Shown here: in pieces, positions 9,606-64,000 of the stretch
Layout: each line of letters opens with the position of its first letter
Position numbering within the stretch: the stretch's first letter is position 1
Assembly (NCBI GenBank): GCA_943789275.1
Contig: CALSTM010000003.1
Span: forward strand, 160,489-224,488
DNA: 64,000 nucleotides
Reading direction: 5' to 3'
From: Candidatus Poseidoniaceae archaeon
Lineage (GTDB): Archaea > Thermoplasmatota > Poseidoniia > Poseidoniales > Poseidoniaceae
The notes under the pieces: model-generated
Databases searched by the model: none
Told to the model about the DNA's origin: nothing
What the model saw: only the letters and a program-made list of their open reading frames with translations
Made by a program: the position numbers and the translations under genes

Positions 9606-9685
9606 GATTGAATGCCTCGGCCTCAGATAGATAAATCATTCACACGACGGAGGGCTTCAAATATGACCCCTAAGTGGTCGATGCA

Positions 9686-43024: not shown

Positions 43025-43134
43025 GCGAGCATAATTTGTCTTCGTCCTGCGACGGTAAAATATGACATGTAACAGTCGCGGTTAAGTACCATAAGATTGT
43101 GCTTTTTCTTAGTCTAACCTAAGGATGTGTATTT

Positions 43135-46100
43135 ATGGGTCAAAAAATAAAGTCAGTCAGTCTTGTATCAATCATGTTGCTTTCCGTCATGTCGACGCTC
43201 TTCTTGGCGTCTCTTACCGCAACAGCGAACACCGTCGTCATCACCGAAGCAATTCAAATCGTTGACGGAGGAACTTCATCCGATACTCAAACTTCAGTCG
43301 GCTCTGACAGTGAAGGAAACGTTCACGTCGTTTGGACTCGGAACAACCTTCACCTCTACTACTCGATGATTTCTCCTCGTGGTGACACCTTGATTGACAC
43401 CACGCAGATTTCAAACCCAGGTCTTCACAAAATCTGGCACCCAGACATGGTTGTTGACGAAAACGACAAGATTCACGTTGTTTGGGCTGATAAGTCAGGC
43501 CAACACAAAATCATGTACACCGTCCTCAACCCTTGGGCATCATCCATGGACGGCATGGCCTCAGACGATGGAACACTTTCTGCAATTGACGACTACGTTG
43601 TCTCAAGCCGTGCGCAAAACCGCGACTGGCCAGCAATCGACATTGACAGCCAAGGCGGCGTTCATATTGTCTGGGAAGATTCCTACGACTCAGAAGGCAA
43701 GTTCTTCAGCCAACCACAGATCTACTACACCATGTTGTCACCAGATATCAGCAGTGGCGCAGTCATTGTCAATTTTGACGATACCCTTCTGACTCCAATC
43801 ATTGGTCACAAAGGCCACCCTGACGTCGTCGTTGACGCAAACGATTACGTCCAAATCGCTTGGGACGACACCCGAGGTGGAAAGGTCGAGCTCAGTTTCA
43901 TCGTTGACACCTCCGGTTCCATGTACTCGGAATGGGCGGACATCTGTACCGTTGTTTACGGTGGGAACTTTGCTTCCGGCGGTTACTTCCAAGGTATCAA
44001 GCCAATGCTTGAAACCGCAAACATGACTGTTTACGAAACCATCTACGGTCTTGGAAATACACTCCCTGGTGCTGCAAGTTCAGGTAACTGCGCTGGTAAG
44101 AACCAAAATTCTGGCCCTCGCACAACGCCTTTGGGTCAAACACCAGGTGACGACTCTGGCGGTATTCGAAAGCTACCGGGGACCGTCTACAACGGCAACA
44201 CTTACTCCGGATATTCCGGTGAAGATTGGGGCCCAGGAACCAACTGGGGTTGCCTTTCATGGAAAGACGCTCAAGGAAACGTCCCAGGAAACCCGCCAAC
44301 TCAAGACGACCACCGATGGAATCCAAACGCAACAAAGATCATCATTCCAGTTTCAGACGAAGGTCCGAAAGACGGTGACCCATCTCAACAAGCAGATGAC
44401 CTGACCTCTATTGAAGAGGCGCACGACAACTGTATCAACGCAGGAGTCATTCCAGTCGGTCTTTACGGACAAGGATACGGTGGAGCCGGTAACATCCAAT
44501 CCCACTTCATGGATTTAGTCCAATGTCCAAACAACGTCGTTTCGACCCAAACTCGAAACTGCCCAGGTAACACGCTACGAAGTTCAGACGCTGGTGGACA
44601 AGCCTATGAGTTCCCATCCGGAACCGGTGGAAACAACGCAATGGCTTTGCTTGTTGAAGCAATGGTTTACATCTCTACAAACAACTCTCGTGAAATCTAC
44701 ATGACTGTTCTGGACCCATACGGTAAGATGAACAACGACCCGTCTTGGACTCCAGGCGCAACAGGACACTCAGTTGTCAACGGCGAATACGTCGAAGATA
44801 CCGGTGCTGGTGCAGACGGCCACCTCGTGGTTGTCAACGACACCCGTGTCACCATTGACGATGCTTACTCGTTCCACCCATCGATTGGTGTTGACATGCA
44901 AGGCAACACCCACATTGCATGGATGGACGGCCGAAACTATGGATTTGAGAAGGCTGTGAACTACGAAGTGTTCTACACCAAACTCCGACTTCAAGGTGCA
45001 GGTGCGTGGGACGGTGCTGACCAAGGACTTTCCACCTACGCTATCAAGAAGATTCAGGATACTCCAATCTCGAATGTTGAAGGAAACGGTGGACTCCCTG
45101 GTAACCGGCCGTTTGGTGGAAACTCCGTATTCCCTGCTCTGCTTACTGATGACCAAAACAACGTTCACATTGCGTGGGTCGATTCAGGAAACGCAACTGC
45201 TGATGAAGAAATCATTTACACTCGCCTGAACTCTACTGACTTGACTGGGCCGGGCCTTACTGCTCTTGACCCTTGGGAAAACGTGCCCGTCACCTCATGG
45301 GCAAGCAACAAACTTGGGCCAAACTCTGGCAGTCAGCCGAGCATAGGCATGCCTCCAGCGTTTTCGAACGATTTGGGAAGTGGCGCGCATATCGCTTGGT
45401 CGGACACGAATAAATGCGGTGAAGACGCCAACAATAACCGCTTCACGATCTGTTATTCCCACGTTCTCACCGGTCAGGTTGACGTTGAATTCCAAGATGG
45501 AGAAACGTACTACCACGTTATCGAACCTGGTCAGCAAACCATCTACAACATGTCAATGAACAACTCGACCCCAGGTCCAAAAGACCTTGTCGCTGATACG
45601 TTCGGACTCAACATCTCTGGTGTTCCCCAAAACTGGACTGCTACACTGTTCTTTGCTGATAACCATACGACAATAATGCCAGACACGCCTATCTTCCTCG
45701 AAGGTGGAGAAGACATTCGCTTCTACATGCGAATTCGTGCTCCGTCGGTGTACCAAGCTGAAGCGGACCAGATTGCCGATATATCGGTGATTGCTAAATC
45801 GTACAAGGACCCTGCTATTCAGTCCGACCTCGTCACTCGTACGCTGATGGACGTTGTTCACGGCATAAACCTGGACACCTCCCACAGCATGGCAGACGTC
45901 GAACAAGGCCAAACTGCGATTTTCTCGATTACGATTACCAACACAGGCAACGTCAACGACCAATTCGTATTCTGGGACCCGTATACACTTGAAGGCCGCC
46001 AAGAGTGGCTGCTTCAATTCGGTTGGACTGTAAACTTCCCAACCAGTGTAGAATTAGACCCTGGACAATCCGTTACCAAGAACCTCGAAGTCTTCGTCCC

Positions 46101-48225
46101 AACATCCGAAGACCCCGGTTCTTTCGTTATTTATCTCAAGGGATGGTCTGCTGGCGAACCGATTAAGTCGATTGAAAAAGGAACATACGACGTCCTTGAA
46201 CTCGGTGTTTTCGTTTCGATTCGTTCAACTGGAAACATCGTCATGGAATTGTTCGATACCAGTGAATATGTTGACCCCGGAGAATGTGCAACCTATCCTA
46301 TTGATGTCACCAAGAATTTCGATTCTGGTAAACTTGTCTTCGTGACCCCCGGTGCACCTGAACAAAAGCCCGACACCATCTCGATGGATGCTTGGAGAGA
46401 AGATAACTGGGTATTAAACCTCGATTTCTCCAATGCTCCGGGAGGCAACTCTGTTGACCTCAGCGAGCCACGAGATTGGAACATACCTCCAGGTGCAGAA
46501 TTTGTTACCTACGAAGTCAGCGTCGAAGTGTGCGCTCCGACCAAAGCTTCTGCCGGTCTTGGTCCTGCGGTTATCGTCAAAGCCTATCTTGACGGCTATC
46601 CAAGAATTTCATCGTCAAAGATTCTCTCAACCAATGTCAACCACGTGTATCAATTAAGCGCAAGTGCAGACATTGCTGATGAAGATAAGATCACTTTGGA
46701 CGGCCAAGAAGTTCTCCCGGTGAACCCTGGACAGCAGGTGGTTATGCCAACTACCGTTACGAATCTTGGAAACGGCCCAGATCGATTCGACTACCGACTT
46801 GCTCGTGTTACTGACCCTGCTGGCGTTGACGTCATCTGGGACATTGAAATCCCTCGTGACAGTCTCGACGAACTTTCCCGTGACACCAACCAAATCTTTG
46901 ACATCACAATGAATGTTCCAGACCAAGTTGAAGCTGGTGTTTACACCGTTGTATTCCAGACCTTCTCGGAAGAATCCTATCCAGATGCAAGCGGTCGTTT
47001 GACACGACTGCGATTCACTCAGACCATTCCTGTCTATGTTCAAGAGTTCTATGACATGCAAATCAGCATGGACTCAACTGTGGACAATGCAGTGAAGACA
47101 TCCGCACCTGGGCGAATTGTGCGGTTTGAATTGAACATCACAAACAATGGTAACGTTCCTGATTGGCCAACGCTCAACAACCACACGGCTAAGATTGATG
47201 GTGACACTCAAATCATGAGTGAGTTGCCTGGAATGGGTACATTGTCCGAATGGTCTGTCGAATGGCAACTTATCAAGCAAATCGGAACCGACCTCACCAC
47301 AGAGGAACCCTGTGAAACAGTTGCTTCGCTCGAAAGCACAACTGGAGACGAAGATGCAGCAATGAATCCAGAAGTGGCATTTGCTGACTTGGCTGACCGT
47401 TGTATTTACCTTGAATCTGAAGACCGCTATTTCATGCCAATGATGGATGCTTACACGACAATTCCAGTCGTTGCTATTGTCAAGATTGACCCGTCTGCTG
47501 TTCTCAGCACGCGCCCGGTCGGCTTGAAGGTCGTCTCGAAGATGGGCAACATGTTGGACGGTGGCGACCATGACGATTCTCCGTCTTGGGCAGCAGAAAA
47601 CCTCGATACAAACGAATTCGTCGTTACGCTACGATTGCGAGCTCCGAACTTGATCATCTCAGAAGTTTCCGTCTCGGACGATACTGGAGATGTAGACACT
47701 ACGATTCCTATCCGTGTCGTGTTGCAAAACGATGGAAACACGCATGCAACAGATATTGAAATCGTATTGTGTGAATACAAAGATGCTGCTGATGCGGACA
47801 TTATCAAGGACATTCGAAAGAACGGCTGTGACGATGAAAACATCGTTATGAGGCAAGTCATTGGTGCACTCCTTGCTCCAGATGACACGGAAGATTACAA
47901 GGAAATCGAACTTGTTCTGCTCTACCCTGTTTCAGCTGGTAGCCACGGTGTTTACGTCGTTGTGGACCCATCAAATGAGATTGTTGAATCATCCGAGAAC
48001 GACAACGTCAAGTCAGTCGAACAAGAACTCAAGTCGTCTGGAGGCATTCTTGACGTCGCTGGTGAAGTGGTTGGAAAGACTGCTCTACCGTTCGCAGTTA
48101 TTCTACTGACCATTGCTTTGTTCGGTGTCGTGTTCCTTGTTGGACGAGGACGCCGACAGGACGTTTTGGACCGAAAGGCTGAGCAATCATCCCTCGTGTC
48201 GGTTTTGGCCGGCGCAGAAGACTGA
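43135..48225 (+). CDS. giant (1696 aa) cell-surface adhesin-like protein with vWA and multiple NTGN-type (CARDB/DUF11-like) domains and C-terminal TM anchor
   Basis: Signal MGQKIKSVSLVSIMLLSVMSTLFLASLTATA. Seven W-x-D...Y repeats (VHVVWTRNNLHLYYSM, IHVVWADKSG..IMYTVL, VHIVWEDSYD..IYYTML and others). MIDAS motif VDTSGSM. Several ITNTGNV / VTNLGNGPD / ITNNGNVPD Ig-like modules. C-terminal KTALPFAVILLTIALFGVVFLVGRGRRQ. Confidence 0.7.
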   Translation: MGQKIKSVSLVSIMLLSVMSTLFLASLTATANTVVITEAIQIVDGGTSSDTQTSVGSDSEGNVHVVWTRNNLHLYYSMISPRGDTLIDTTQISNPGLHKIWHPDMVVDENDKIHVVWADKSGQHKIMYTVLNPWASSMDGMASDDGTLSAIDDYVVSSRAQNRDWPAIDIDSQGGVHIVWEDSYDSEGKFFSQPQIYYTMLSPDISSGAVIVNFDDTLLTPIIGHKGHPDVVVDANDYVQIAWDDTRGGKVELSFIVDTSGSMYSEWADICTVVYGGNFASGGYFQGIKPMLETANMTVYETIYGLGNTLPGAASSGNCAGKNQNSGPRTTPLGQTPGDDSGGIRKLPGTVYNGNTYSGYSGEDWGPGTNWGCLSWKDAQGNVPGNPPTQDDHRWNPNATKIIIPVSDEGPKDGDPSQQADDLTSIEEAHDNCINAGVIPVGLYGQGYGGAGNIQSHFMDLVQCPNNVVSTQTRNCPGNTLRSSDAGGQAYEFPSGTGGNNAMALLVEAMVYISTNNSREIYMTVLDPYGKMNNDPSWTPGATGHSVVNGEYVEDTGAGADGHLVVVNDTRVTIDDAYSFHPSIGVDMQGNTHIAWMDGRNYGFEKAVNYEVFYTKLRLQGAGAWDGADQGLSTYAIKKIQDTPISNVEGNGGLPGNRPFGGNSVFPALLTDDQNNVHIAWVDSGNATADEEIIYTRLNSTDLTGPGLTALDPWENVPVTSWASNKLGPNSGSQPSIGMPPAFSNDLGSGAHIAWSDTNKCGEDANNNRFTICYSHVLTGQVDVEFQDGETYYHVIEPGQQTIYNMSMNNSTPGPKDLVADTFGLNISGVPQNWTATLFFADNHTTIMPDTPIFLEGGEDIRFYMRIRAPSVYQAEADQIADISVIAKSYKDPAIQSDLVTRTLMDVVHGINLDTSHSMADVEQGQTAIFSITITNTGNVNDQFVFWDPYTLEGRQEWLLQFGWTVNFPTSVELDPGQSVTKNLEVFVPTSEDPGSFVIYLKGWSAGEPIKSIEKGTYDVLELGVFVSIRSTGNIVMELFDTSEYVDPGECATYPIDVTKNFDSGKLVFVTPGAPEQKPDTISMDAWREDNWVLNLDFSNAPGGNSVDLSEPRDWNIPPGAEFVTYEVSVEVCAPTKASAGLGPAVIVKAYLDGYPRISSSKILSTNVNHVYQLSASADIADEDKITLDGQEVLPVNPGQQVVMPTTVTNLGNGPDRFDYRLARVTDPAGVDVIWDIEIPRDSLDELSRDTNQIFDITMNVPDQVEAGVYTVVFQTFSEESYPDASGRLTRLRFTQTIPVYVQEFYDMQISMDSTVDNAVKTSAPGRIVRFELNITNNGNVPDWPTLNNHTAKIDGDTQIMSELPGMGTLSEWSVEWQLIKQIGTDLTTEEPCETVASLESTTGDEDAAMNPEVAFADLADRCIYLESEDRYFMPMMDAYTTIPVVAIVKIDPSAVLSTRPVGLKVVSKMGNMLDGGDHDDSPSWAAENLDTNEFVVTLRLRAPNLIISEVSVSDDTGDVDTTIPIRVVLQNDGNTHATDIEIVLCEYKDAADADIIKDIRKNGCDDENIVMRQVIGALLAPDDTEDYKEIELVLLYPVSAGSHGVYVVVDPSNEIVESSENDNVKSVEQELKSSGGILDVAGEVVGKTALPFAVILLTIALFGVVFLVGRGRRQDVLDRKAEQSSLVSVLAGAED

Positions 48226-54663: not shown

Positions 54664-56790
54664 ATGGACCCTCAAACCATGCGACCGGTTTACTTTGTGT
54701 TGATGCTGGTCCTGCTCACGTCCCTTTCGGGATGTTTGGGCGACGGGGACTCCTCCGATCAGGTGCCCGGCACTTATGTTGTTGAATCTCAGCTAACTCT
54801 CATCGAGATAGAGGCAAAATCCGATTACTATCAAGACGACGAGACGATGTTGTGGTCGGTTGAATCTGGCCCTTTTATCGACGCCATCGAAGATGCTGGC
54901 GGAAACGTAGTCGGGGTGTTGTTCTCATTGAGTTATGGTGAGGACGAATCTTCAGGCGGTCCAGTGTGCACCGGGGGTGAGGCCAACCAACCCGACACGA
55001 TCACCGGCTCCGTAACCAAGGGCGAATGGGTTCTTTCGGACCCCGGTGAAAACCCCGGTTCCCATGACGTGAACCTCACGTGGTACAACCAGTCACTGCT
55101 CTCGGGTGTGATTGAAGGCGTGACCAAGAGCGAAATTGAGGCACAATTGGCCTTCGGTGAAGAAGCCCTTGGAAGATATGAGTTGAGCCTCACCGTCGAT
55201 GCGGAGGCCTTCAACGGCGTGTTGTGTTCGAACAACGACGACGGGGAAGAAGTCGCTACCGTGGTCAGTTTGCTGGTGCTGGATTTCACCGTTCTCAACG
55301 AGGACGGAGAGGGGGAATCGGTGTTGGCGGTCGGCGATGATTCGTTACCTCTGTTCATGTTCGCAGCCTGGATTTTCCCGGTGGTGTTTCTCGTCGGGTA
55401 CGTTTCGACCCAACAACGAGAACGCTTCCACCTTGACCTAGATTTTGGAGAACCGGAAACCGAAGTCGTTGAGGGCGAGTCCACTTCAGACGGCGAGACG
55501 CTGGTCGACAGTTATCGAGCCCGTGTCATCACCCTCTCTGCGCTCTACGTCGCACAAGGCGTACCGTGGGGCTTCATCACCGTCACGATGGTGACCTTCC
55601 TCGCTGCTGAAGGGGCGGACGCCGGCGATCTTGCGTACTTGCTAACACTCGGCACCCTACCGTGGTCGTTCAAGTTCCTCTGGGGGCCTATCATTGACCG
55701 CTTCCAGATGCCCGATCTTGGACGGCGTCGGCCCTGGATCCTCATTGCTCAGACCGGCATGGTGGCGCTGCTGGTCACCATGCTCTTAGTGCCCAATTTG
55801 ACCGACAACATATCCCTGCTTGGTGCGCTGTTCTTCGTGTACAATGTGTTCACTGCGCTTCAAGATGTGTCGACCGATGCCTTGGCAGTTGACGTGCTGC
55901 AATCCCATGAATTTGAGCGGGTCAACAGCTACATGTTCACCGCCAAGTCGTTGGGTGGTATCATCGGTGGAGCAGGTCTTGGGACCATCATCGGCATCGT
56001 GGGCATCAGAGGGGCCTTCCTCATCCAAATCCCCATTCTCATTGTGATCATGATGGTGCCCTTGTTCATGCGTGAGCGTCCGGGCGAAAAGCGCTTCCCT
56101 TGGGACAAAAACGACGCCGTTGAGATGGCTGACAAGTCCGATGAATGGGATGAGGGCGTGCGGGGCTTCGCCGTCATTCTCGGGAACATCAAGACCGCCT
56201 TTTCTGTTCGTTCAGCCCAACTCGGCATTGCGGTCAGCCTCATGATTTCCCTTGCGTTCATTCTCATCCCTATTCTCCCACTGCTGTTCCTTCAAGAGTT
56301 GGGTTGGAGCCAAGAAGAATTCAACGCCACGAAGGGCGGAATCATTCTGGTAGTCACCATGCTTGGGGCCATGGCAGGTGGCGAACTTGGTCGCAGATTT
56401 GGTGGAAAATCCATGCTGATGTACGCTGCGCTTAGCGCTTCGTTAACCACATTGGCGTGGGGTACGTTTGACAATATGTGGAGCGAAGGTTGGTTCATGA
56501 TGCTGGTGTGGCTGGTCCACACTTTCCTCTGGTCAATCGTATCCATCTGCGCCTATTCGCTCATGATGAGAGTGACATGGGCGGAAGTTGGTGGAACTCA
56601 ATTTACCGGTTACATGGCGATGATGAACCTCTCTGCCATCATAGGCTACCAATTAGCGCCCATCTTCGCAGAACGCTACAACTACCAGACCATCTTCTAC
56701 ATCGCTGCAGTGCTTGAGACGTTCGTGGTGCTTGCTGCGCTTTTCATTGACCCTGAAGAGACGGATCGAACCCTCAAAACTGCAGTGTGA
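54664..56790 (+). CDS. MFS transporter (AmpG/LplT-like) fused to an N-terminal roughly 270-aa lipoprotein-like extracellular domain
   Basis: Signal with Cys VLMLVLLTSLSGC. Acidic N-terminal domain. Twelve TM helices follow, with the MFS loop motif GPIIDRFQMPDLGRRRPW. Confidence 0.6.
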   Translation: MDPQTMRPVYFVLMLVLLTSLSGCLGDGDSSDQVPGTYVVESQLTLIEIEAKSDYYQDDETMLWSVESGPFIDAIEDAGGNVVGVLFSLSYGEDESSGGPVCTGGEANQPDTITGSVTKGEWVLSDPGENPGSHDVNLTWYNQSLLSGVIEGVTKSEIEAQLAFGEEALGRYELSLTVDAEAFNGVLCSNNDDGEEVATVVSLLVLDFTVLNEDGEGESVLAVGDDSLPLFMFAAWIFPVVFLVGYVSTQQRERFHLDLDFGEPETEVVEGESTSDGETLVDSYRARVITLSALYVAQGVPWGFITVTMVTFLAAEGADAGDLAYLLTLGTLPWSFKFLWGPIIDRFQMPDLGRRRPWILIAQTGMVALLVTMLLVPNLTDNISLLGALFFVYNVFTALQDVSTDALAVDVLQSHEFERVNSYMFTAKSLGGIIGGAGLGTIIGIVGIRGAFLIQIPILIVIMMVPLFMRERPGEKRFPWDKNDAVEMADKSDEWDEGVRGFAVILGNIKTAFSVRSAQLGIAVSLMISLAFILIPILPLLFLQELGWSQEEFNATKGGIILVVTMLGAMAGGELGRRFGGKSMLMYAALSASLTTLAWGTFDNMWSEGWFMMLVWLVHTFLWSIVSICAYSLMMRVTWAEVGGTQFTGYMAMMNLSAIIGYQLAPIFAERYNYQTIFYIAAVLETFVVLAALFIDPEETDRTLKTAV

Positions 56791-56980
56791 GTGCTTGACT
56801 GTGAGGATTTATTCCGATACCATGTCGTCCGGAAAAACTCGTTGCAACCCTTTGTACACCCATTAGTAAGCTTTTCACGCGTGGGTACCCATTCGTGAGA
56901 TGCATGTGGGATGGGTGTTGGGTGGGTATACAGTTTGCTTCAAGTAGGGTTTATCTACAGTTGCCAATGGTAAGGGTTTG

Positions 56981-58225
56981 ATGCAGATGAACGACTCCTT
57001 TGAATTTAGATTAGGAGATTGTTTTTCAATTGGAAAAGAATTGGAAGACGAGAGCATTGATTGCATCATTACATCTCCTCCATATTGGAAACAAAGAGAA
57101 TATGATGTAGATGAAACAAAGATTGAGTTCTTGATTGGAATGGAAGAAAAACCTGAAGAGTATGTAGACCATTTAGTTAGAGTTTTGTCAATCTTGAAAA
57201 AGAAATTGAAAAGAGGAGGGTCATTGTGGCTAAATCTTGGTGACAAATATGTGAAAAAGAACCTCATGGGTATGCCGTGGAGAGTGGCAATAGCGTTGAT
57301 GGATGATGGCTGGATCTTGAGGAACGATGTAATATGGCATCGAATGAAAGGAACACAGAGTGCAAAGGATAAACTTCGAGATAACCATGAATACATCTTT
57401 CATTTTGTCAAAAACAAGAAATATTTCTATGACTTAGATTCCATAAGAATAGAGAGAGATCAAAAACCAAAGATGAAAAATGGTAGAATCGTATCATCCA
57501 CCGGTGTTTCTGGACAATCTTATTTCCGTAAGATTAAGAATTCAACAATATTAACCGACGAAGAAAAAGAGAATGCGACAAATGCCCTTAATCAAATGTT
57601 GGGACGCATGAAAGAAGGTAATATTGATGATTTCCGAATGTACATCAAGGGAGAACACCGAATCCTGCATAGTGATAAAGAACGAATCAGCGGAAGGGCA
57701 CGTCAATTAAATAGGGAAGGATTCTACTTCATGAGTAGTACTTCAAAGGGTAAAGTTCCATCGGACATTTGGTCTCATTCAGACAATGACATTTTCGAAA
57801 ACGATGCTATTTGTGCATTTGCTGTTTTAAGATCAGGGGACCTTATTCCAGGTACTCTATGGAATATTACTCCTGAAGATGAATGGAGAAAAGATGCTCA
57901 TTATGCAGTGTTCCCTACAGAATTACTACGCATCCCCATTTTGGCAACATGCCCTATAGATGGTGTTGTTTTGGATCCATTTATGGGTACTGGTAGTACT
58001 ATTCTGGCAGCAGTAGAATTTGGTAGGAAAGGAATTGGTTTCGATATTAGCCAGAAATATCTAGATATCGCGCAATCTAGACTGATAAAGGTCAACGGGG
58101 CTGCCAAGGAAGAATATCTAGATTTGCCTTCAAAGACAATAGTACAACTGAAAGAACTACTCAAAAAAGCAGGTAAACCAGTTTCCGGTAAGAAGTCTGA
58201 ACTAATTAAAAGACTCAATCAGTGA
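56981..58225 (+). CDS. DNA methyltransferase, beta-class N4-cytosine/N6-adenine (PF01555-like), with C-terminal SAP motif
   Basis: Motif IV DCIITSPPYW near the N-terminus and motif I LDPFMGTGSTILAA near the C-terminus, a beta-class order. The C-terminal LPSKTIVQLKELLKKAGKPVSGKKSELIKRL is SAP-like. ATG 56981 (the 56978 start is TTG). Lies in low-GC DNA. Confidence 0.75.
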   Translation: MQMNDSFEFRLGDCFSIGKELEDESIDCIITSPPYWKQREYDVDETKIEFLIGMEEKPEEYVDHLVRVLSILKKKLKRGGSLWLNLGDKYVKKNLMGMPWRVAIALMDDGWILRNDVIWHRMKGTQSAKDKLRDNHEYIFHFVKNKKYFYDLDSIRIERDQKPKMKNGRIVSSTGVSGQSYFRKIKNSTILTDEEKENATNALNQMLGRMKEGNIDDFRMYIKGEHRILHSDKERISGRARQLNREGFYFMSSTSKGKVPSDIWSHSDNDIFENDAICAFAVLRSGDLIPGTLWNITPEDEWRKDAHYAVFPTELLRIPILATCPIDGVVLDPFMGTGSTILAAVEFGRKGIGFDISQKYLDIAQSRLIKVNGAAKEEYLDLPSKTIVQLKELLKKAGKPVSGKKSELIKRLNQ

Positions 58226-58275
58226 ATTGTATAAATTGGCTAATACATAATTAACAACCCAGTCTTAGCGTTGAC

Positions 58276-59046
58276 ATGGTCAAGGTTCCAATTGAGTGGT
58301 TTGGTTGGAAAATCCCGGCCTTTAGTTCAACGGAATCAACTATTGGTCAAGGAAATCAAACCTGCAGATTTACAAACAACTTGTGCTCAAAGCCTCGAAA
58401 ATCAACTCCTGAAATTAGGACTGGAATTTGCTCAGTAAACATGACTGCAGGATTTTTTGAAGGAACTAGAAGAGTAATCATCTGTCCTAAGCGCTTTGAA
58501 TTAGATAATTTCTTTTCAATGCTTTCACAAAGATACTTTGACGCCGATCACTCTGTAACATGGACTCCAGAAGTCAAGATTGGCAATTTTGGGAATATCG
58601 ATTTCGTGGCATCACACTCATTACCAAGGGATGAAGAAGCGGATGAATCTGATGAAATGGAAGATGAAGATGATGTGGATGATGAACCACAAATCGTTTT
58701 GTTCGAATTACAAGCCGGAGGTACCACGGGAAGCCCTTATCCAGCAATTGAAGATTTTATTGAGAATCAGAGTTTTTCACAGACCAGCTACAGTTTTTCC
58801 ATTAATTGGGCGAATGAATTTATCAAAACTATGGGGCAACAGATCATCAAAAAGGGTCACGCAATTAATGGCTGGGGGGTTCCGATTGTATTTGTTATTC
58901 AAGACGTGGCCATGGAATATATCGTGGACAAAATGAATACTGAAAATCTAACAGAGCGCCCCGTAGATGCAGAGTGGCCTGACGAGGAGTATATCACTTT
59001 AGAACTATCACGATGGGAGATGGTGATGATTCAATGTTTTCTTTAG
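58276..59046 (+). CDS. candidate restriction endonuclease partner of the methyltransferase (Cys4 N-terminal module, acidic insert)
   Basis: Immediately downstream of the MTase on the same strand in the low-GC island. N-terminal C-x6-C...C-x?-C cluster (CRFTNNLC...GICSVN...ICPKRF). Possible PD-(D/E) core NIDFVASH...VLFELQ. No recognisable family beyond that. Confidence 0.35.
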   Translation: MVKVPIEWFGWKIPAFSSTESTIGQGNQTCRFTNNLCSKPRKSTPEIRTGICSVNMTAGFFEGTRRVIICPKRFELDNFFSMLSQRYFDADHSVTWTPEVKIGNFGNIDFVASHSLPRDEEADESDEMEDEDDVDDEPQIVLFELQAGGTTGSPYPAIEDFIENQSFSQTSYSFSINWANEFIKTMGQQIIKKGHAINGWGVPIVFVIQDVAMEYIVDKMNTENLTERPVDAEWPDEEYITLELSRWEMVMIQCFL

Positions 59047-59190
59047 AAGAGGGGTCTTTCTACACAGCAACCTTGGAGACAGCTGAGGCAATGCTGACTG
59101 TAGAAGGGTCCATCCATTTAAATCAATTTTTATTAGACTTGGAAGGCCGAATGGAAAGGGCTGAAACCTTCACAGTTGACACATGAAAAG

Positions 59191-59910
59191 TTATTTTCTT
59201 CGATGCCAGGGCTTGCCTCCCCACCAAGGGGGGTGCTGAAACTTCAATCTCTTCATATGGAAATCATTACTGATTGTTCTAGTTATGGAATTACCTTGCC
59301 ACTTCCCCCCTCGCTTACCCTTGATACCTCGCTTGTTGAGTGACCTAGCCAAAGCGGCAGTAGCCATGCCATTTTCATTAATTTGCCATGCCATGTAGTC
59401 GATGCAGTCTTGCTCAGTCCAATTGGGAACAAACATGCCATTCTCATCAACATCCCACCCAAAGATTGACTTCGTGAATTGTTTGTTTGTTGCTCGAAGT
59501 TGATTCATGGCTTCTACTGTTCGTTCTGAAATCAATCCTCTTTCCATTTCAGCGAGGGCGCCCATCAGTGTTAGAAAAAATCGACCCATCGTGGTTGAAG
59601 TATCTACAGCCTCACCGTTCAAATCCACAATGTGTAGATTGATATTTGCATCATTAAGTTCATCGATTGTTATCAAAACGTCTGTCGTCAATCTGAACAT
59701 CCTATCTAATTTCATCGTAATGAGGTCGCTGTATTGGCCTGTGCTCAATCTTCGTTTGAGTATTCGACCTTTCGGCCTATCCCACAGTGGAATACCTCCA
59801 CTCACACCTTCTTCGATAATGATGTCATCTGGACTGAGGTTCAATTTCTTGTATCTTACATATTCGAGAATTCTTCTCTTCTGAGCTTGTATGCTCACAC
59901 CTTCATCCAC
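59191..59910 (-). CDS. serine recombinase (resolvase/invertase family) with C-terminal HTH; atypical short N-terminus
   Basis: GVSIQAQKRRILEY resembles the RVSTxxQ nucleophile region. FFLTLMGALAEMERGLISERT is the resolvase E-helix signature. The C-terminal ATAALARSLNKRGIKGKRGGKW is HTH-like. Only a GTG start is available at 59910, with a stop 11 codons upstream. Confidence 0.6.
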   Translation of the reverse strand: MDEGVSIQAQKRRILEYVRYKKLNLSPDDIIIEEGVSGGIPLWDRPKGRILKRRLSTGQYSDLITMKLDRMFRLTTDVLITIDELNDANINLHIVDLNGEAVDTSTTMGRFFLTLMGALAEMERGLISERTVEAMNQLRATNKQFTKSIFGWDVDENGMFVPNWTEQDCIDYMAWQINENGMATAALARSLNKRGIKGKRGGKWQGNSITRTISNDFHMKRLKFQHPPWWGGKPWHRRK

Positions 59911-60041
59911 CTGCCTCTGTGATTGAAACTCGAATGTAGGCTACGCTTTTTGCTCGTTGGTTAGGTTGATTATTATGCAACATTTCTGAAGATTGTGATA
60001 CTTTCTATTTAATACATCACAACGTCGGAAATTTCACGCAG

Positions 60042-60162
60042 TTGGAACAATCAACCAATCGTTAATCATAATTGCACATGGGTTCAAGCAAATAACCCTT
60101 GAAACATGTTGATTGATTTTCAACGGTATGTTTGAACCCCTGTTTGAACAATCAACCAATCG
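60042..60162. repeat. pair of 19-20-bp direct repeats (tt[g/t]gaacaatcaaccaatcg) 101 bp apart inside an ~800-bp AT-rich non-coding stretch
   Basis: The copies sit at 60042-60061 and 60143-60162. Partially complementary ttgattg elements lie between them. Positioned between the recombinase and the large unknown gene. Confidence 0.6.
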
Positions 60163-60719
60163 ATTAGGATAGGTTGCAAGGGGTTATCCGAAACCCCATT
60201 CAACTTCCAAATCCGGTTTGAAGGGGATGCAGTCGGTCTGTTGGGTTCGCTACCGTTCCAACCATATACAGTCGCAAGGGCCCGCTTCCAACTTTTTTAA
60301 ATGTATTATATTCACGCTATCCATCCAATTACTCTTGAGTGAATGGGGGCGTTGCGATTGGCATGACAAAAGTGCCTTTATATTGAAAAAATGATATTTC
60401 TACTCAATAACCTAATACAAATAGATGAAGAATCATTCTGAGGGTGGCAATCAGGAAGACCATGCAAAAGATACGGCAGAAATAACATGTTCAAGACCAA
60501 CTTTATGGGCATTAACGTTCTAGGTTCGCGGGCTGTAGCAACCCTCTATGAGGTTCAGTAATATCTTTTGATGTCAAAAGAGTTTGTTTGTTCATTAAGT
60601 ATTAAGCCACAACCGGTATATAAAGAGGTGTACCCTGCTGGCCTGGTGACTTTTGAGCGTTCAATAGAAATAGATTTATTTCAGAAACACCAATTAAAAT
60701 TTTAATTGAATAAATACGA

Positions 60720-63614
60720 TCATTCATTTTCTTCACTATCCGAAAGGTAACCATCCTTTAATTGACCCCACAGAAGGGACATTGCTGGTTTATCTTGATG
60801 TGTATTGATGTCCCTAAAAGTCGTGCTTGAAACGATCGTTCGGCCATCAAACACCACAGGGAATAAAACCAATCGACTCCATAAAATCCATTCTCGATCT
60901 GTGGTTTTACGTATACGTTGGAAGGCACGTTCGATTGTTTCTTGTGTATTTGGTAATGTATTCGCACTCCCCGAAGGTGCATCCTCGTCGAAAACATCCA
61001 AAACATCCATCAGTTCCTCGTATTCTTCCGGGGTAAGTTCGTATGGGCCTTCGAATTTATTTGATAGCGGAGTCTGGATGAACGAAGTCCAATCTTCATA
61101 ATGAATACCTTCAAAATTAAGTCGGGTTCGAGACTTCTCTAGTATTGAGACCATTGAACACTCAGGGCCTCTTCTCGGCAATCCGTTTGAGAGAAGATAT
61201 TCGAGATCTAAATCTCCACGGATCAGTTCTTTATCGTGGCGGTCATCAAACTTCAATGGATTGAAATGGATACCAAGATGTCCCTTCTGTTTTATGAGTA
61301 TTTTTAATCTTGATAATATGTCATCATTAATCTCACATTGATGAAGTTCAGGATTATTTTCAAAATAAGTTGCCTCGCTCTTCAGCCATTCACTGTGCAT
61401 GAACTTCAAGAGAACGCGAACCTGATCGATAACCAGGACACTGCTGTCCTGATAAGGTTGGCGAAGTGGCTGTTCAAGCAACAAACGTGCGATCTGTTCA
61501 ACACGGGCCGTGAGCACATACAAACGTGCAAACGAGACCCTCAACATCTGGTCGACAAGTTGAGCCTTGTCGTACAATTTTGAATCACCATCGTGCTGCA
61601 ACACCCTCATCGGTGCCTGAGCAGCTTCTTGGGCCGCATGAATGATATCGTGAATGTGAATCGATTTCAAAGAAGACGGAAATCCACTGGTATCCACTGA
61701 AGATTGCCTTGCAGCACGATCAAGTCGGTCCTCAATATTGAATGGTGCTTGGTCAGCGATGAGATGTTCGATCAAATTCATCGAAGTCGCAGCAAACATG
61801 AGCGGGTCCATTCTATTGACGCGGTTGACATTTTTTCGGGAAAGAATGTTCTTTTTCAATTGAGCCTTAGTGTCGGCTGGCTCAGGAAGACGATGGCTCA
61901 CAAAGGGCTTGTTGTTGGGGTTGCCTTTCAAATGACCAATGGAAAATTGTGGACGGTTTTTGACTGCGCCGCTGACTTTCCATGTGCTGTTTTTTCCCTC
62001 GTGATTGAACATTTTTTCTAAATTTCCAAAGTAGTTGTTTTCATCTGGTTCTTTCAAAATCAATTGCATGTACGCCATCAAAATTGATATCTGCGATTGG
62101 TTGATAGAAGATTGAGGGAAATATTGCAAATGTTTGGATTTGTGATTCTCTTCCACGCCCCAAATCCAACGAGGCAGAAGTCCCACTTTGGAGGTGAACG
62201 GATTTAATTCTCTTGGATCACCAATCAAACGGATTAATCTCCCGAGGCCGGATGGGTTGCCTTGCGAGGCAGATCTATCAAACATGTCATTCATGGATGC
62301 TTTTCTGAAGAGTCCTCTGATTCTTGCTGGACAATCCCTTTCATCGTCCCATCCCATCTCGATGTACTCCTCTATCAGTTTCGATTTTTGTTGAAAGTCT
62401 TCAGCATCGTCTTGTGAGATTTCCCCCTCTTTTACTTCCTTCTCGAAGTAATTCGGTTTAGACATCTCTAGGAGAATCGCCGGAACAATATTTGAGAGAA
62501 GGATACCCCTATCTTGTTTAAGCTTGGAAAGAACCATTTCCTTCATCCAAGCATCGGTTGTTGTGACGGAATCAACAGCTTCTGTTAACTTTTCATACAA
62601 ATCAATTATCTCAGTCGAAAATTCCAATCGAAGGGTGAGTTGGTTGATCGGGGGGTTATCATCATCGCCATTCGTAGCCGTCTGATCTTTTTTATCAGTC
62701 TTGACAAAAGGCCTTGTTTCGTTGACAAGATTGTGGCACATCACGCGCAAGGTGCTTTCGATGTGAAGCACAGACGAGATGTGCAATTTTCCGGCAGAAT
62801 CCCGAATAAAACTCCTGATTGCATTGAAAATGTTCTTGAGTTTGTCCTTGTCCGAGTTCTGTTCAAACTCTTTTAATGTTTGAGACGCTGCATTCTTTGA
62901 ATTGAGGGTGATTCTTTTGGAAATTTCAAACAGGGCGCGTATCCATAATTCTGCTTCAGTGGCATCTGCTTCTGTACTTGGTTGAATTTCGCTAAACAAC
63001 AACGGACTGAACGAAATTAAACCCTTGACATCCTCTGGCATGAATGCCTTTTCGTGGATTTTCAATTTCGAACCTTGCTTCGCCAGCATCAACGCTGGAG
63101 CGATCAAACCTCTTGCCCTCAACACCAATGTAGATTCATAGATGACCGCAATTTCCCACCAATTGACTGCAGATTCGGATTTGTTTTCTCGAATGATGGC
63201 ATACCCCTTGTTGACGACAAAATTCGTTAATTCTTGATTGACTCGACAGTAGTCGCTAAGTTCATGCTGTGTGATTGTCGTTTTTTGGCCGGCGAGGGCT
63301 TCGGCACTGAGTTTACCGTTGAATGCGGTATTGATGCGGGCTATGATCCGGCGAAGGAGACAGATGTCATGCCATAGTTGAAAGGTTTTTTTTGAATGTT
63401 CAGCGTTATTCCATTCCGAAACTTTGCGAATCGTTTCTTTGCTTAACTCAAGAAGTTCTCTTGTAAGTCGTTCAATTCGTGCTTTGGGCCGGTTGTGCAC
63501 TGGTCCATTTGATGAAGGTAGAACGCCATGTATGCAATCAACGATTGCGCTTGTAAGTGCGTTTGCTTCAAACAATACTGTGTGCGATTCACGGCCCATC
63601 ATGTCCACTCTCAT
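60720..63614 (-). CDS. large (964 aa) hypothetical protein of unrecognised family in low-GC island
   Basis: Single uninterrupted ORF. ATG 63614 (MRVDMMGRESH...) lies about 23 nt downstream of a TTAAATATA box; the track start 63668 is GTG. Mostly helical composition. No Walker A, no nuclease or methylase motifs found by eye. Confidence 0.55.
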   Translation of the reverse strand: MRVDMMGRESHTVLFEANALTSAIVDCIHGVLPSSNGPVHNRPKARIERLTRELLELSKETIRKVSEWNNAEHSKKTFQLWHDICLLRRIIARINTAFNGKLSAEALAGQKTTITQHELSDYCRVNQELTNFVVNKGYAIIRENKSESAVNWWEIAVIYESTLVLRARGLIAPALMLAKQGSKLKIHEKAFMPEDVKGLISFSPLLFSEIQPSTEADATEAELWIRALFEISKRITLNSKNAASQTLKEFEQNSDKDKLKNIFNAIRSFIRDSAGKLHISSVLHIESTLRVMCHNLVNETRPFVKTDKKDQTATNGDDDNPPINQLTLRLEFSTEIIDLYEKLTEAVDSVTTTDAWMKEMVLSKLKQDRGILLSNIVPAILLEMSKPNYFEKEVKEGEISQDDAEDFQQKSKLIEEYIEMGWDDERDCPARIRGLFRKASMNDMFDRSASQGNPSGLGRLIRLIGDPRELNPFTSKVGLLPRWIWGVEENHKSKHLQYFPQSSINQSQISILMAYMQLILKEPDENNYFGNLEKMFNHEGKNSTWKVSGAVKNRPQFSIGHLKGNPNNKPFVSHRLPEPADTKAQLKKNILSRKNVNRVNRMDPLMFAATSMNLIEHLIADQAPFNIEDRLDRAARQSSVDTSGFPSSLKSIHIHDIIHAAQEAAQAPMRVLQHDGDSKLYDKAQLVDQMLRVSFARLYVLTARVEQIARLLLEQPLRQPYQDSSVLVIDQVRVLLKFMHSEWLKSEATYFENNPELHQCEINDDILSRLKILIKQKGHLGIHFNPLKFDDRHDKELIRGDLDLEYLLSNGLPRRGPECSMVSILEKSRTRLNFEGIHYEDWTSFIQTPLSNKFEGPYELTPEEYEELMDVLDVFDEDAPSGSANTLPNTQETIERAFQRIRKTTDREWILWSRLVLFPVVFDGRTIVSSTTFRDINTHQDKPAMSLLWGQLKDGYLSDSEENE

Positions 63615-63632
63615 GACGCCACATAACGTGAG

Positions 63633-63641
63633 TATATTTAA
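63633..63641 (-). promoter_or_regulatory. archaeal TATA box (TTAAATATA on minus strand) for the 964-aa gene, leaderless arrangement
   Basis: Plus strand reads tatatttaa at 63633-63641. The centre lies about 23 nt upstream of ATG 63614. Confidence 0.4.
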
Positions 63642-63819
63642 GCATGTTATGGTTGCATTCTCAAACACATTAAGGTTGCATCTGCGCTCAGATTTAGAAA
63701 GTCATAAACGAAAAAATCAATGCTAAGGATTGAAAATATGTTAGCACAGGTTTCATTAACTGGGACCAATTGGCAAACTCGTGCGAACACAGTCAGAGTT
63801 CAGAAAGCTTCGTCGAGAA

Positions 63820-64000
63820 ATGGCGCCTTACGTGGAAGTCATTGCAAAAATTGGTGCAACTACGGTCAAATCGATCTTCGATGATGTGTGGAACAAAGAG
63901 GAAAAGGATATCGGATTCGAAGAAGACGATGCTTGGATGTCTCGATTTCTTGCAAAAATGGTCATTGATGATCTCATCGAAGACCAAGAGCAGTCCCGAA
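63820..64000 (+). CDS. hypothetical protein, 5' fragment (continues beyond window end)
   Basis: ATG 63820 gives MAPYVEVIAKIGATTVKSIFDDVWNKEEKDIGFEEDDAWMSRFLAKMVIDDLIEDQEQSR with no stop before 64000. The competing antisense 64-aa ORF is less protein-like. Confidence 0.25.
   Translation, partial: MAPYVEVIAKIGATTVKSIFDDVWNKEEKDIGFEEDDAWMSRFLAKMVIDDLIEDQEQSR

What the first reader, a model, noticed from the sequence alone, without database searches (positions are those of the whole stretch)
56800..64000. Low-GC island carrying an R-M module, a serine recombinase and a large unknown gene
From just after the MFS transporter stop, GC falls from about 50% to about 38-40% and stays low to the window end. 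The region encodes a beta-class N4/N6 methyltransferase, a Cys-rich candidate endonuclease, a resolvase-type serine recombinase, an ~800-bp AT-rich non-coding stretch with direct repeats, and a 964-aa protein with no recognisable motifs. This is the composition and gene content expected of a horizontally acquired defence or mobile island. Its largest gene may be a new defence component.
Basis: partly seen in the sequence, partly recalled or inferred. Interest (0 to 1): 0.8.

Follow-up and report, generated by a model that had tools for sequence, protein, structure and literature searches.

The report
Swappable gene cassettes in marine archaeon
The low-GC stretch is a real, strain-variable insertion in a Marine Group II archaeal chromosome: one cassette carries a restriction-modification system and a serine recombinase, the next carries a six-gene nuclease/ATPase module built around a 964-aa protein with no known relatives, and the cassettes join their neighbours at a shared TA dinucleotide.

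Summary
GC falls from 49.6% to 41.3% at about 56,890 and stays low to the window end (z -5 to -7). All the named genes are present.

Contigs with an identical MFS gene carry at least eight different gene sets downstream, including an empty site. So this is an insertion hotspot.

Cassette A (about 56,887-60,252) holds a beta-class N4/N6 methyltransferase with a SAP tail, a NotI-family endonuclease, a 263-aa serine recombinase and a 220-bp repeat-rich site. Both apparent frameshifts in the window are single-base differences from two otherwise identical assemblies.

Cassette B starts at 60,252 and runs about 5.8 kb past the window end. It holds the 964-aa protein, transcribed divergently from a ~200-aa gene, a NERD nuclease, a 33-aa ORF, and SbcD-like and SbcC-like genes. 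This pairing recurs in about 25 loci down to 26% identity.

The 964-aa family has only 47 clusters among 1.84 billion representatives. It has no Pfam, PDB, PADLOC or PHROG match, and its confident all-alpha model has no specific structural relative.

Cassette borders fall on a TA beside the conserved half-site CAGTGGGTC-N8-CGC-TA. Serine-recombinase cassette exchange is my inference. A defence role for cassette B is plausible but untested.

The parts
54664..56790 (+). MFS transporter gene: the conserved chromosomal left flank, not part of the island
   Evidence: PF07690 E 8e-34. The identical 708-aa product is on 19+ contigs with different downstream content.
56870..56903 (.). Left junction site. 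A near-palindrome with the core GGGTACC at 56883-56889 and TA at 56886-56887. All strains are identical up to here.
   Evidence: Alignment A2, inverted repeat I4, and the empty-site versus L006 comparison.
56887..56937 (.). Left-end sequence of cassette A. It is about 65-75% similar to the left end of the L001 cassette and to the 40-bp spacer in the empty site. The exact left border is therefore ambiguous within this range.
   Evidence: BLAST end points 56916 (L003) and 56937 (L001); sequences.
56978..58225 (+). Beta-class N4/N6 DNA methyltransferase with a C-terminal SAP domain
   Evidence: PF01555 E 7e-48, SAP E 2e-8. PADLOC MTase_II E 2e-67. SPPY precedes FMGTGST in the sequence.
58276..59187 (+). 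NotI-family type II restriction endonuclease. The window copy is frameshifted at 58993, leaving an ORF of 58276-59046. It is an intact 303 aa in L002, L036 and L037.
   Evidence: 67 homologues, most carrying PF12183. P0013 hits PF12183 at E 3.5e-7. Cys4 and ExQ are conserved. Indel shown.
59191..59983 (-). Serine recombinase, 263 aa when intact. The window has one extra base at 59923, just after the catalytic AYIRVS.
   Evidence: PF00239 E 4e-23. Frames. Intact copies in L036/L037 and L004. Nearest NCBIfam models are CcrB and XisF, N-terminal half only.
60041..60257 (+). A ~220-bp recombination-site element (copy 1). It has the ATCAACCAATC motif at 60050 and 60151 and, inverted and imperfect, near 60107-60117; a GGGGTTATCCGAAACCCC hairpin; and the terminal half-site CAGTCGGTC-N9-CGC-TA at 60230-60252.
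   Evidence: Alignment A3, nhmmer E 7e-62, motif map, half-site map.
60251..60252 (.). TA junction between cassette A and cassette B
   Evidence: L017 is 100% identical to the window from 60830 down to 60251 and unrelated beyond. L013 breaks at the same TA.
60252..60719 (.). Non-coding left arm of cassette B, conserved only in close relatives
   Evidence: No ORF of note and no Rfam match.
60720..63614 (-). 964-aa all-alpha protein of an orphan family: the signature gene of cassette B
63615..63819 (.). Divergent promoter region between the large gene and the operon. It contains a strain-variable patch at 63684-63789.
63820..64000 (+). 5' part of the ~200-aa first gene of the operon (~200 aa, NERD, 33 aa, SbcD-like, SbcC-like). 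It runs off the window end.
   Evidence: Reading. Full operon seen in L011, L012, L013 and L037.

Best explanation
The segment is the first 7.1 kb of a roughly 12.9-kb strain-variable insertion in the chromosome of a Marine Group II (Poseidoniales) archaeon. It lies at a hotspot just downstream of an MFS transporter gene and consists of two cassettes.

Cassette A (about 3.4 kb):
- It encodes a type II restriction-modification pair and a 263-aa serine recombinase. The pair is a beta-class N4/N6 methyltransferase and a NotI-family endonuclease.
- The recombinase promoter-proximal region is a ~220-bp site element ending in CAGTSGGTC-N8/9-CGC-TA.

Cassette B (about 9.5 kb, of which 3.7 kb is in the window):
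- It encodes a 964-aa all-alpha protein, divergently transcribed from an operon. The operon holds a ~200-aa protein, a NERD nuclease, a 33-aa ORF, an SbcD/Mre11-like phosphoesterase and an SbcC/Rad50-like ATPase without a zinc hook.
- It ends in a second, directly repeated copy of the site element.

Shown:
- The composition shift, the gene identities and the presence/absence polymorphism.
- The conserved gene linkage of cassette B.
- Neighbouring segments in different strains are joined exactly at a shared TA next to the conserved half-sites.

Inferred:
- The serine recombinases exchange, insert and excise these cassettes by a 2-bp (TA) crossover.
- Cassette A protects the host, or itself, as an R-M system.
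- Cassette B is a DNA-end or DNA-structure-directed nuclease machine, most likely acting against foreign DNA, with the large protein as its scaffold or sensor.
For: Composition.

Polymorphism at the site:
- The identical MFS protein sits on 19+ contigs with at least 8 downstream configurations, including empty sites L003 and L009.
- All of them diverge after ...CACGCGTGGG-TA.

Clean insertion case:
- Empty site: GGG-TA-CCGACGCGTG.
- L006 left: GGG-TA-GCG-N8-GCCCACTG.
- L006 right: CAGTGGGTC-N8-CGC-TA-CCGACGCGTG.

Cassette B borders:
- Its left end is joined to three different neighbours at the same TA.
- Its right end is joined to two.

Half-sites:
- The exact half-site occurs 12 times (9 distinct sequences) in 497 kb, against 0 in 200 shuffles.
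- All 12 lie downstream of the conserved flank or beside cassette genes.

Recombinase:
- Serine recombinases are the only recombinases found in these loci.
- The window-type recombinase plus element is shared at 74% nt identity with L001, which carries a different R-M pair.
- The recombinase and the REase are intact in L036 and L037.

Host: archaeal flank genes (Topo VI A/B, TFIIB), and a 93%-identical copy of the large protein, with the same operon, in a Ca. Poseidoniales MAG.

Cassette B linkage: the large gene is paired with the same operon in the window lineage, the P0006 contig, L015, L016 and L018-L035, at 26-45% identity.

Operon domains: NERD E 3.5e-10 and Metallophos E 1.2e-12. P-loop GQNGRGKT, SHGTKEQ and LLDDA in the 869-aa protein.
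Against: - No experiment or excision product links the recombinase to the TA junctions. TA duplication with terminal inverted repeats is also the hallmark of IS630/Tc1-type DDE transposons.
- Cassettes A and B each show the conserved half-site at only one end. Their left ends are different sequences.
- In the window itself the REase and the recombinase are each frameshifted, so this copy may be inert if the indels are real.
- Cassette B matches no known defence model beyond generic P-loop hits at E 1e-6 to 1e-3.
- SbcCD-like pairs are also ordinary repair or phage recombination genes.
- The hotspot cargo is mixed (pst operon, MBOAT), so guilt by association is weak.
- Two loci (L026, L035) keep the large gene but lack the SbcCD-like pair.
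- The far end of the island is seen only in relatives (L011, L012, L013), not in the window.
Confidence: 0.7

Rival explanations
1. The cassettes are cargo-carrying transposons or MITE-like units. A TA-targeting DDE transposase of the IS630/Tc1-mariner type, encoded elsewhere, moves them. The serine recombinase is then only cargo or a resolvase.
For: L006/L008 show a 2.1-kb unit with inverted ~35-100-nt ends and TA on both sides of the insert. The pst operon is likewise bracketed by inverted half-sites. Most cassettes encode no recombinase.
Against: No DDE transposase domain appears in any cassette ORF scanned, or in the precomputed Pfam tables of the loci. The full-length site element sits directly upstream of the serine recombinase gene in two different cassettes. 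A shared 2-bp overlap at attL and attR is equally what serine recombinases produce.
Confidence: 0.15
2. The region is a decayed integrated virus or plasmid. Cassette B is its recombination/replication module, analogous to T4 gp46/47 or T5 D12/D13, and not a defence system.
For: Low GC. SbcD-like gene hits PHROG 100 (E 3e-4). In one distant context the large gene lies next to a 1345-aa T7-type RNA polymerase (PF00940) and many small ORFs. A serine recombinase lies nearby in L015.
Against: No capsid, terminase, portal or replication gene in any of about 25 loci. No relative of the large protein in IMG/VR or in 50,697 phage records, and no BFVD structural match. The RNA polymerase neighbour is not conserved. 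The module is bounded by the same cassette junctions as non-viral cargo such as pst.
Confidence: 0.12
3. Cassette B is a host double-strand-break repair system, an Mre11-Rad50 analogue with a NERD nuclease in place of NurA. It merely happens to lie in a variable region.
For: Metallophos plus an SMC-like ATPase in operon order, as in SbcCD or B. subtilis YhaO/YhaN (the latter from my own knowledge). Weak NCBIfam hits to sbcd and Rad50.
Against: The module is present or absent among strains with identical flanks. Both families are tiny: 47 representative clusters (50% identity) among 1.84 billion representatives for the large protein, and 15 clusters (90% identity) among 5.8 billion for the ATPase. 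There is no CxxC zinc hook. It sits at different chromosomal sites in different lineages.
Confidence: 0.05
4. The low-GC block is an assembly chimera or a merely fast-evolving native region.
For: The source assemblies carry single-base indel errors. For example, the large gene is split into three ORFs in L036.
Against: The same A+B arrangement with the same junctions occurs in at least four independent assemblies: the window, L002/L038, L036 and L037. Empty-site alleles exist.
Confidence: 0.02

Closest known systems
Type II restriction-modification systems of the NotI endonuclease family with a beta-class (PF01555) N4/N6 methyltransferase
   Same: Adjacent same-strand MTase and REase genes. 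MTase motifs are in beta order. The REase has the N-terminal Cys4 cluster and a conserved E-x-Q block, and its relatives score above threshold on PF12183.
   Different: The direct match to NotI itself is very weak (PDB 3bvq E 0.25). The MTase carries a C-terminal SAP domain. The host is archaeal. The specificity is unknown. The window copy of the REase is frameshifted.
Elements moved by large serine recombinases: SCCmec CcrA/B, Tn4451 TnpX, Tn5397 TndX and phage serine integrases (site behaviour recalled from my own knowledge)
   Same: An N-terminal resolvase catalytic domain followed by the start of the 'Recombinase' domain. The best NCBIfam hits are CcrB and XisF. Segments are joined at a 2-bp overlap flanked by inverted half-sites.
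   Different: Only 263 aa, with no zinc-ribbon or coiled-coil C-terminal part. The site element is ~220 bp with three 11-bp repeats. Many cassettes lie in series rather than one element. Archaeal host.
Integron cassette arrays
   Same: A recombinase gene lies next to a primary site. Promoterless or self-contained cassettes follow in series, each ending in a related, partly palindromic site. Cargo is highly strain-variable.
   Different: No tyrosine IntI and no attC sites. The recombinase is of the serine type and sits inside a cassette. Cassettes are large, including whole operons of 2-9.5 kb. The resemblance is one of organisation only.
SbcCD / Mre11-Rad50, B. subtilis YhaO-YhaN (SbcEF) and phage gp46/47 nuclease-ATPase pairs
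   Same: A 376-aa calcineurin-type phosphoesterase is followed by an ~870-aa ATPase with an N-terminal Walker A, a long helical middle, and a C-terminal signature-like motif and Walker B.
   Different: Scores are far below the curated cut-offs (sbcd 29.5 versus 77.65 bits; Rad50 18.8 versus 1087). No zinc hook. It is always linked to a ~200-aa protein, usually also to a NERD nuclease and a 33-64-aa ORF, and to the 900-1030-aa orphan protein.
SMC/ABC-ATPase-based defence systems (Lamassu LmuB, Septu PtuA, Gabija GajA, PbeC, DndD)
   Same: An ATPase with a P-loop N-terminus is coupled to a nuclease, in a variable island next to R-M genes.
   Different: Only the first ~50 residues match (E 1e-6 to 5e-3). 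None of those systems' partner proteins is present.

Membership tests
Type II R-M system | DNA MTase domain above the curated threshold, with a catalytic (S/D/N)PPY motif and an FxGxG AdoMet motif | tested here: met
   PF01555 scores 163.9 bits against a cut-off of 26.7. SPPY at residues 33-36 and FMGTGST near residue 335, read.
Type II R-M system | A cognate restriction endonuclease of a recognised family encoded next to the MTase | tested here: met
   The gene starts 50 bp downstream on the same strand. Its homologues (E 1e-43) carry PF12183 NotI. The window protein itself does not reach Pfam significance, so membership rests on transitive homology.
Type II R-M system | Intact endonuclease reading frame | tested here: not met
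   The window lacks a T at 58993 and loses the last ~63 aa. L002, L036 and L037 are intact at 303 aa. This may be an assembly error.
Type II R-M system | Matching methylation and cleavage specificity | not testable with these tools
   Needs methylome data or enzyme assays.
Serine recombinase superfamily | Resolvase catalytic domain with the nucleophilic Ser in a Y-x-R-V-S motif | tested here: met
   PF00239 E 4e-23. AYIRVS is present, out of frame in the window and in frame in L036, L037 and L004.
Large serine recombinases (integrase / Ccr / TnpX type) | C-terminal recombinase domain plus zinc ribbon and coiled coil (about 450-700 aa) | tested here: not met
   263 aa. Only positions 3-55 of PF07508 are matched. 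The CcrB model is matched over 6-247 of 542.
Serine-recombinase site-specific recombination | Crossover at a central dinucleotide between inverted half-sites, with the same dinucleotide at both product junctions | tested here: inconclusive
   TA is shared at every junction examined, and the half-sites are inverted in L006 and in the joined pairs in L003 and L011. The catalyst has not been identified.
Integron | Tyrosine recombinase IntI with attI and attC sites | tested here: not met
   No tyrosine recombinase domain appears in any locus table. The sites are unrelated in sequence.
IS630/Tc1-mariner-type transposon | DDE transposase together with TIRs and a TA target duplication | tested here: not met
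   TIRs and TA are present, but no DDE transposase was found in the cassette ORFs.
SbcCD / Mre11-Rad50 | SbcD/Mre11 phosphoesterase reaching the family cut-off | tested here: not met
   PF00149 is met at E 1.2e-12. TIGR00619 sbcd scores 29.5 bits against a cut-off of 77.65.
SbcCD / Mre11-Rad50 | Rad50/SbcC ATPase with a CxxC zinc hook in the coiled coil | tested here: not met
   The protein has a single Cys, at residue 851. The Rad50 model scores 18.8 bits against a cut-off of 1087.
Known anti-phage systems in PADLOC-DB v2 | Full-length match of the system's signature proteins | tested here: not met
   The large protein, the 214-aa protein and the 222-aa protein have no hits. The ATPase matches only over its N-terminal P-loop. 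The NERD protein hits only the NERD parts of PglW and MkoA.

The most novel reading that the evidence does not exclude
Marine Group II archaea carry a gene-capture array run by serine recombinases. Self-contained cassettes include R-M systems, the whole pst phosphate-uptake operon, and a previously unseen six-gene nuclease/ATPase system built around a 950-1030-aa orphan protein. They are inserted, excised, inverted and swapped between strains by a TA crossover at sites of the form hairpin / AAGGG-N4-CAGTGGGTC-N8-CGC-TA. The six-gene module would be a new archaeal anti-virus or anti-plasmid system.
Probability: 0.35. Interest if true: 0.85.

Novelty: new variant of a known kind. Interest (0 to 1): 0.66.

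Why it matters
Marine Group II archaea are among the most abundant archaea of the surface ocean. They have never been cultured, and their mobile elements and immunity are almost unknown.

This locus gives three concrete, testable things:
- A hotspot where strains with identical flanks differ by whole operons.
- A defined candidate recombination site and a small serine recombinase that could be tested in vitro.
- A conserved six-gene module whose central protein has no sequence relative outside 47 metagenomic clusters and no specific structural relative.

If the pst operon really moves as a cassette, the same machinery would also shape nutrient-uptake ecotypes, not only defence.

Tried and rejected
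- tRNA or ncRNA integration target: the only tRNAs are at 30 kb and 34 kb, and Rfam finds nothing in 56700-64000 at E<=1.
- First structure model of the large protein, from 10 sequences: useless at pLDDT 46. A 20-sequence alignment gave pLDDT 81 and pTM 0.87.
- Profile of the large family against PDB sequences and Pfam: no hit.
- Large protein in IMG/VR and in phage records: none. Half-site patterns in IMG/VR: none.
- The T7-type RNA polymerase next to one distant homologue looked exciting, but it is not conserved in other contexts.
- I first read the REase and recombinase frameshifts as decay of the element. I dropped this as a firm claim after L036 and L037 proved identical apart from those two single-base T/TT differences, in assemblies that show other indel errors.
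- A fixed-spacing search for the half-site in the window found nothing, because copy 1 has a 9-nt spacer and one mismatch. A flexible search found it.
- Literature searches found no description of this locus, of serine-recombinase cassettes in Marine Group II, or of a NERD-SbcCD defence system.
- A search for a DDE transposase in the 2.1-kb TIR-bounded unit was negative.
Full report
**1. The observation**

The composition shift is real and sharp. The window up to 56889 is 49.6% GC; from 56890 to 64000 it is 41.3%. Three-kb windows inside the region lie 4.8-7.3 SD below the core mean GC. Their tetranucleotide distance from the core is 4.4-9.0 SD above the core spread.

- The MFS transporter is at 54664-56790.
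- The methyltransferase at 56978-58225 matches PF01555 at 163.9 bits and has a C-terminal SAP domain. SPPY lies ahead of FMGTGST, which is the beta-class motif order.
- The Cys-rich ORF starts at 58276.
- The resolvase-type recombinase is on the minus strand at 59191-59983.
- A 0.73-kb non-coding stretch of 38.5% GC contains a 30-nt direct repeat.
- The large ORF is 964 aa, or 960 aa as called in public assemblies. It has no hit in Pfam, PADLOC, PHROGs or NCBIfam.

**2. Host and population context**

The flank encodes topoisomerase VI A and B, and TFIIB lies beyond the far end of the island. A 93%-identical copy of the large protein sits in a Candidatus Poseidoniales MAG, followed by an operon with the same ORF layout as L011. 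The host is therefore a Marine Group II archaeon.

Looking up the exact 708-aa MFS protein returned 19 contigs. Ten were shown, with flanks 99.5-99.9% identical to the window. Downstream of the gene they carry:
- the same island as the window (L002);
- nothing, with MFS followed directly by the pst operon (L003, L009);
- an MjaV-type REase, a different MTase, a related recombinase and further genes (L001);
- an MTase-like 756-aa gene, a GIY-YIG gene and an intact recombinase (L004);
- an MBOAT set (L005);
- a 2.1-kb two-gene unit followed by pst (L006; the same unit in L008, whose contig ends there);
- a Rieske / aldo-keto-reductase / ABC-transporter segment (L007);
- yet another junction (L010).

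**3. Anatomy: two cassettes and their borders**

*Left border.* All strains are identical up to ...CACGCGTGGG-TA (TA at window 56886-56887) and differ from there on. The next ~50 nt of the window resemble the left end of the L001 cassette and a 40-bp spacer in the empty site. The left border is therefore 56887-56937.

*Internal border.* Contig L017 is 100% identical to the window from 60830 down to 60251 and unrelated beyond. L013 breaks at the same place. The sequences read:
- window: ...TTCGC-TA-CCGTTCCAACC...
- L017: ...AGTGGG-TA-CCGTTCCAACC...
- L013: ...AATGGG-TA-CCGTTCCAACC...

So 60251-60252 is a junction between cassette A (56887-60252) and cassette B (60252 onward).

*Extent of cassette B.* Relatives L011, L012 and L013 show that it continues about 5.8 kb past the window end. 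It runs through a ~200-aa gene, a NERD gene (425 aa), a 33-aa ORF, a Metallophos/SbcD-like gene (376 aa) and an SbcC-like gene (869 aa).

*Right border.* Directly after the SbcC-like stop codon lies a second copy of a ~220-bp element. Its first copy sits at window 60041-60257, just upstream of the recombinase gene. Beyond the second copy, L012 continues into core-like DNA of 49.3% GC (aconitase, TFIIB), while L011 and L013 continue into another small cassette. The island in this lineage is therefore about 12.9 kb.

**4. The site element and the TA junctions**

The element contains three copies of ATCAACCAATC (direct, inverted, direct) and a GGGGTTATCCGAAACCCC hairpin. It ends in AAGGG-N4-CAGTGGGTC-N8-CGC-TA.

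Its last ~35-100 nt recur at other cassette borders. The cleanest case is L006/L008 against the empty site:
- empty site: CACGCGTGGG-TA-CCGACGCGTG
- L006 left: CACGCGTGGG-TA-GCGTCTGACAAGGCCCACTG...
- L006 right: ...CAGTGGGTCAAATCACTCGC-TA-CCGACGCGTG

That is a 2.1-kb insert with inverted ends and the same TA on both sides.

Other observations fit the same pattern.
- The pst operon in L003 and L006 is bracketed by inverted half-sites in the same way.
- Joined pairs (CGC-TA-GCG and GGG-TA-CCG) occur where two cassettes abut.
- The exact half-site occurs 12 times (9 distinct sequences) in 497 kb of fetched DNA, against none in 200 shuffles.

A 2-bp overlap shared by both product junctions, flanked by inverted half-sites, is what serine recombinases leave (established knowledge). 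Serine recombinases are the only recombinases seen in these loci. The full element lies at the 5' side of the recombinase gene in two cassettes with different R-M cargo. Those two cassettes share 74% nt identity over the recombinase and element only.

That the recombinase catalyses the exchanges is my inference, not a result. The main rival is a TA-duplicating DDE transposon family, for which no transposase was found.

Cassettes A and B carry the canonical half-site only at their right ends. The current model does not explain this.

**5. Cassette A genes**

*Endonuclease.* The 256-aa ORF has 67 homologues. Most carry PF12183 (NotI) in precomputed annotation. One at 43% identity scores E 3.5e-7 on PF12183. 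Four Cys residues and an E-x-Q block are invariant. The direct match to the NotI crystal sequence is marginal, though it is the top hit (E 0.25).

*Recombinase.* When intact it is 263 aa, beginning MLHNNQPNQRAKSVAYIRVSSQRQVDEG. It resembles the N-terminal half of CcrB- and XisF-type large serine recombinases but lacks their C-terminal zinc-ribbon and coiled-coil part.

*Frameshifts.* In the window both genes are frameshifted, by a missing T at 58993 and an extra T at 59923. Assemblies L036 and L037 are identical to the window across cassette A except for exactly these two bases, and both genes are intact there. L036 has indels elsewhere. I regard the window's frameshifts as probable sequence errors or very recent lesions.

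*Allelic exchange.* L002/L038 carries a divergent allele (~81% identity) of the recombinase 5' end plus the element, bounded at 59899 and 60243. This is evidence of allelic exchange at the site.

**6. Cassette B and the 964-aa protein**

*Family size.* A word-indexed search found 9 clusters. An exhaustive profile search of 1.84 billion representatives found 47, about 15 of them full length. The family is absent from IMG/VR and from phage records.

*Conserved positions.* Invariant residues cluster in NRMDPLM, HxHDxIHAAQEA, LRQPYQxSSVLxIDQVRVLL and REWILWSRL...GRxIVSSTTF. None is a motif I can assign.

*Gene linkage.* This is the informative part. In every locus with enough flank, the large gene is divergently paired with a ~190-225-aa gene. 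These loci are the window lineage, a JGI contig at 44% identity, L015 at 33%, L016 at 29%, and those of L018-L035 with enough upstream sequence, down to 26%. The paired gene is usually followed by a NERD protein and/or a 278-aa plus HEAT-like 211-aa pair, then a 33-64-aa ORF, the SbcD-like gene and the SbcC-like gene. Two loci (L026, L035) lack the SbcCD-like pair.

*The ATPase.* Its family is equally small, at 15 clusters. The protein has Walker A GQNGRGKT, SHGTKEQ and LLDDA, but only one cysteine and hence no zinc hook.

*Mobility.* The module sits at different chromosomal sites in different lineages. L018 and L020 lie next to a homologue of the window gene at 9674-11692, and L014 lies near uvrC.

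*Reading.* The module is a mobile, sporadically distributed DNA-processing machine. The best-supported view is an ATP-driven nuclease complex directed at DNA ends or unusual DNA, with the large protein as scaffold or sensor. Defence against viruses or plasmids is the most likely role, given the company it keeps. It fails every membership test for known defence systems and for canonical SbcCD/Mre11-Rad50, so the role is unproven.

**7. Verdict**

The R-M pair and the recombinase are ordinary members of known kinds.

Three things are not ordinary:
- the cassette architecture with exact TA junctions and a conserved site;
- the apparent mobility of whole operons, including pst;
- the orphan six-gene module.

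No paper in the searchable library describes any of these. I rate the finding a new variant of a known kind, with interest 0.66.

Noticed in passing
L003 12267-19749; L006 8010-15650: The whole pst phosphate-uptake operon (pstS, phoU-like, pstC, pstA, pstB, phoU; 7.5 kb, 46.6% GC) is bracketed by inverted copies of the cassette half-site. It is absent from the first 10 kb downstream of MFS in several strains, so it may itself be a mobile cassette.
   Followed up: partly
window 59899-60243 versus L002/L038: Two otherwise near-identical strains differ by about 66 substitutions and indels confined to the recombinase 5' end and the site element. It looks like a gene-conversion or allelic-replacement tract that stops 8 nt before the TA.
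   Followed up: partly
window 63684-63789: A second strain-variable patch lies in the divergent promoter region between the 964-aa gene and the operon. The flanking coding DNA is >99% identical.
   Followed up: no
JGI 3300072015 contig carrying P0006 (no DNA available): Directly downstream of a 44%-identical homologue of the large protein lies a 1345-aa single-subunit (T7-type, PF00940) RNA polymerase gene, followed by many small ORFs and a ThiF gene. This is unusual for an archaeal context. It is not conserved in other loci.
   Followed up: partly
L016 360-2015; L025, L026, L028 and L031 (560-aa ORFs): In one subfamily of the module, a ~550-560-aa gene always lies convergent with the large gene. 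In L016 it matches Pfam TPD (PF14811). It may be a further component.
   Followed up: no
window 58130-58225 (MTase residues 385-415): The methyltransferase ends in a SAP DNA-binding domain (E 2e-8). From my own knowledge this is an uncommon fusion for a prokaryotic type II MTase.
   Followed up: no
L018 10375-10528 and L020 3224-3752 versus window 11535-11688: In another lineage the six-gene module lies next to the homologue of the window's 672-aa gene (9674-11692). The module therefore occupies at least two or three different chromosomal sites.
   Followed up: partly
L010 about 12201 and L005 12226-12335: L010 diverges from all other strains about 25 nt earlier (after ...ACACCCATT). L005 repeats ACACCCATT around a ~45-bp insert. 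This suggests a second breakpoint just upstream of the GGGTACC core.
   Followed up: no
L036 12278-15162: The large gene is called as three ORFs (545, 213 and 155 aa) in one assembly. This shows that these public assemblies contain indel errors, which matters for reading the window's own frameshifts.
   Followed up: yes
window 43001-47000: This is the only other tetranucleotide outlier in the window (z about 3, normal GC, strong AT skew). It overlaps the start of a gene of at least 1696 aa with a faint CLIPPER_2 hit.
   Followed up: no
L017 3247-4647: In the strain where cassette B has a different left neighbour, that neighbour encodes a 466-aa HNH endonuclease-domain protein (PF14279, E 6.5e-8). 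This is another nuclease-type cargo at the same junction.
   Followed up: no
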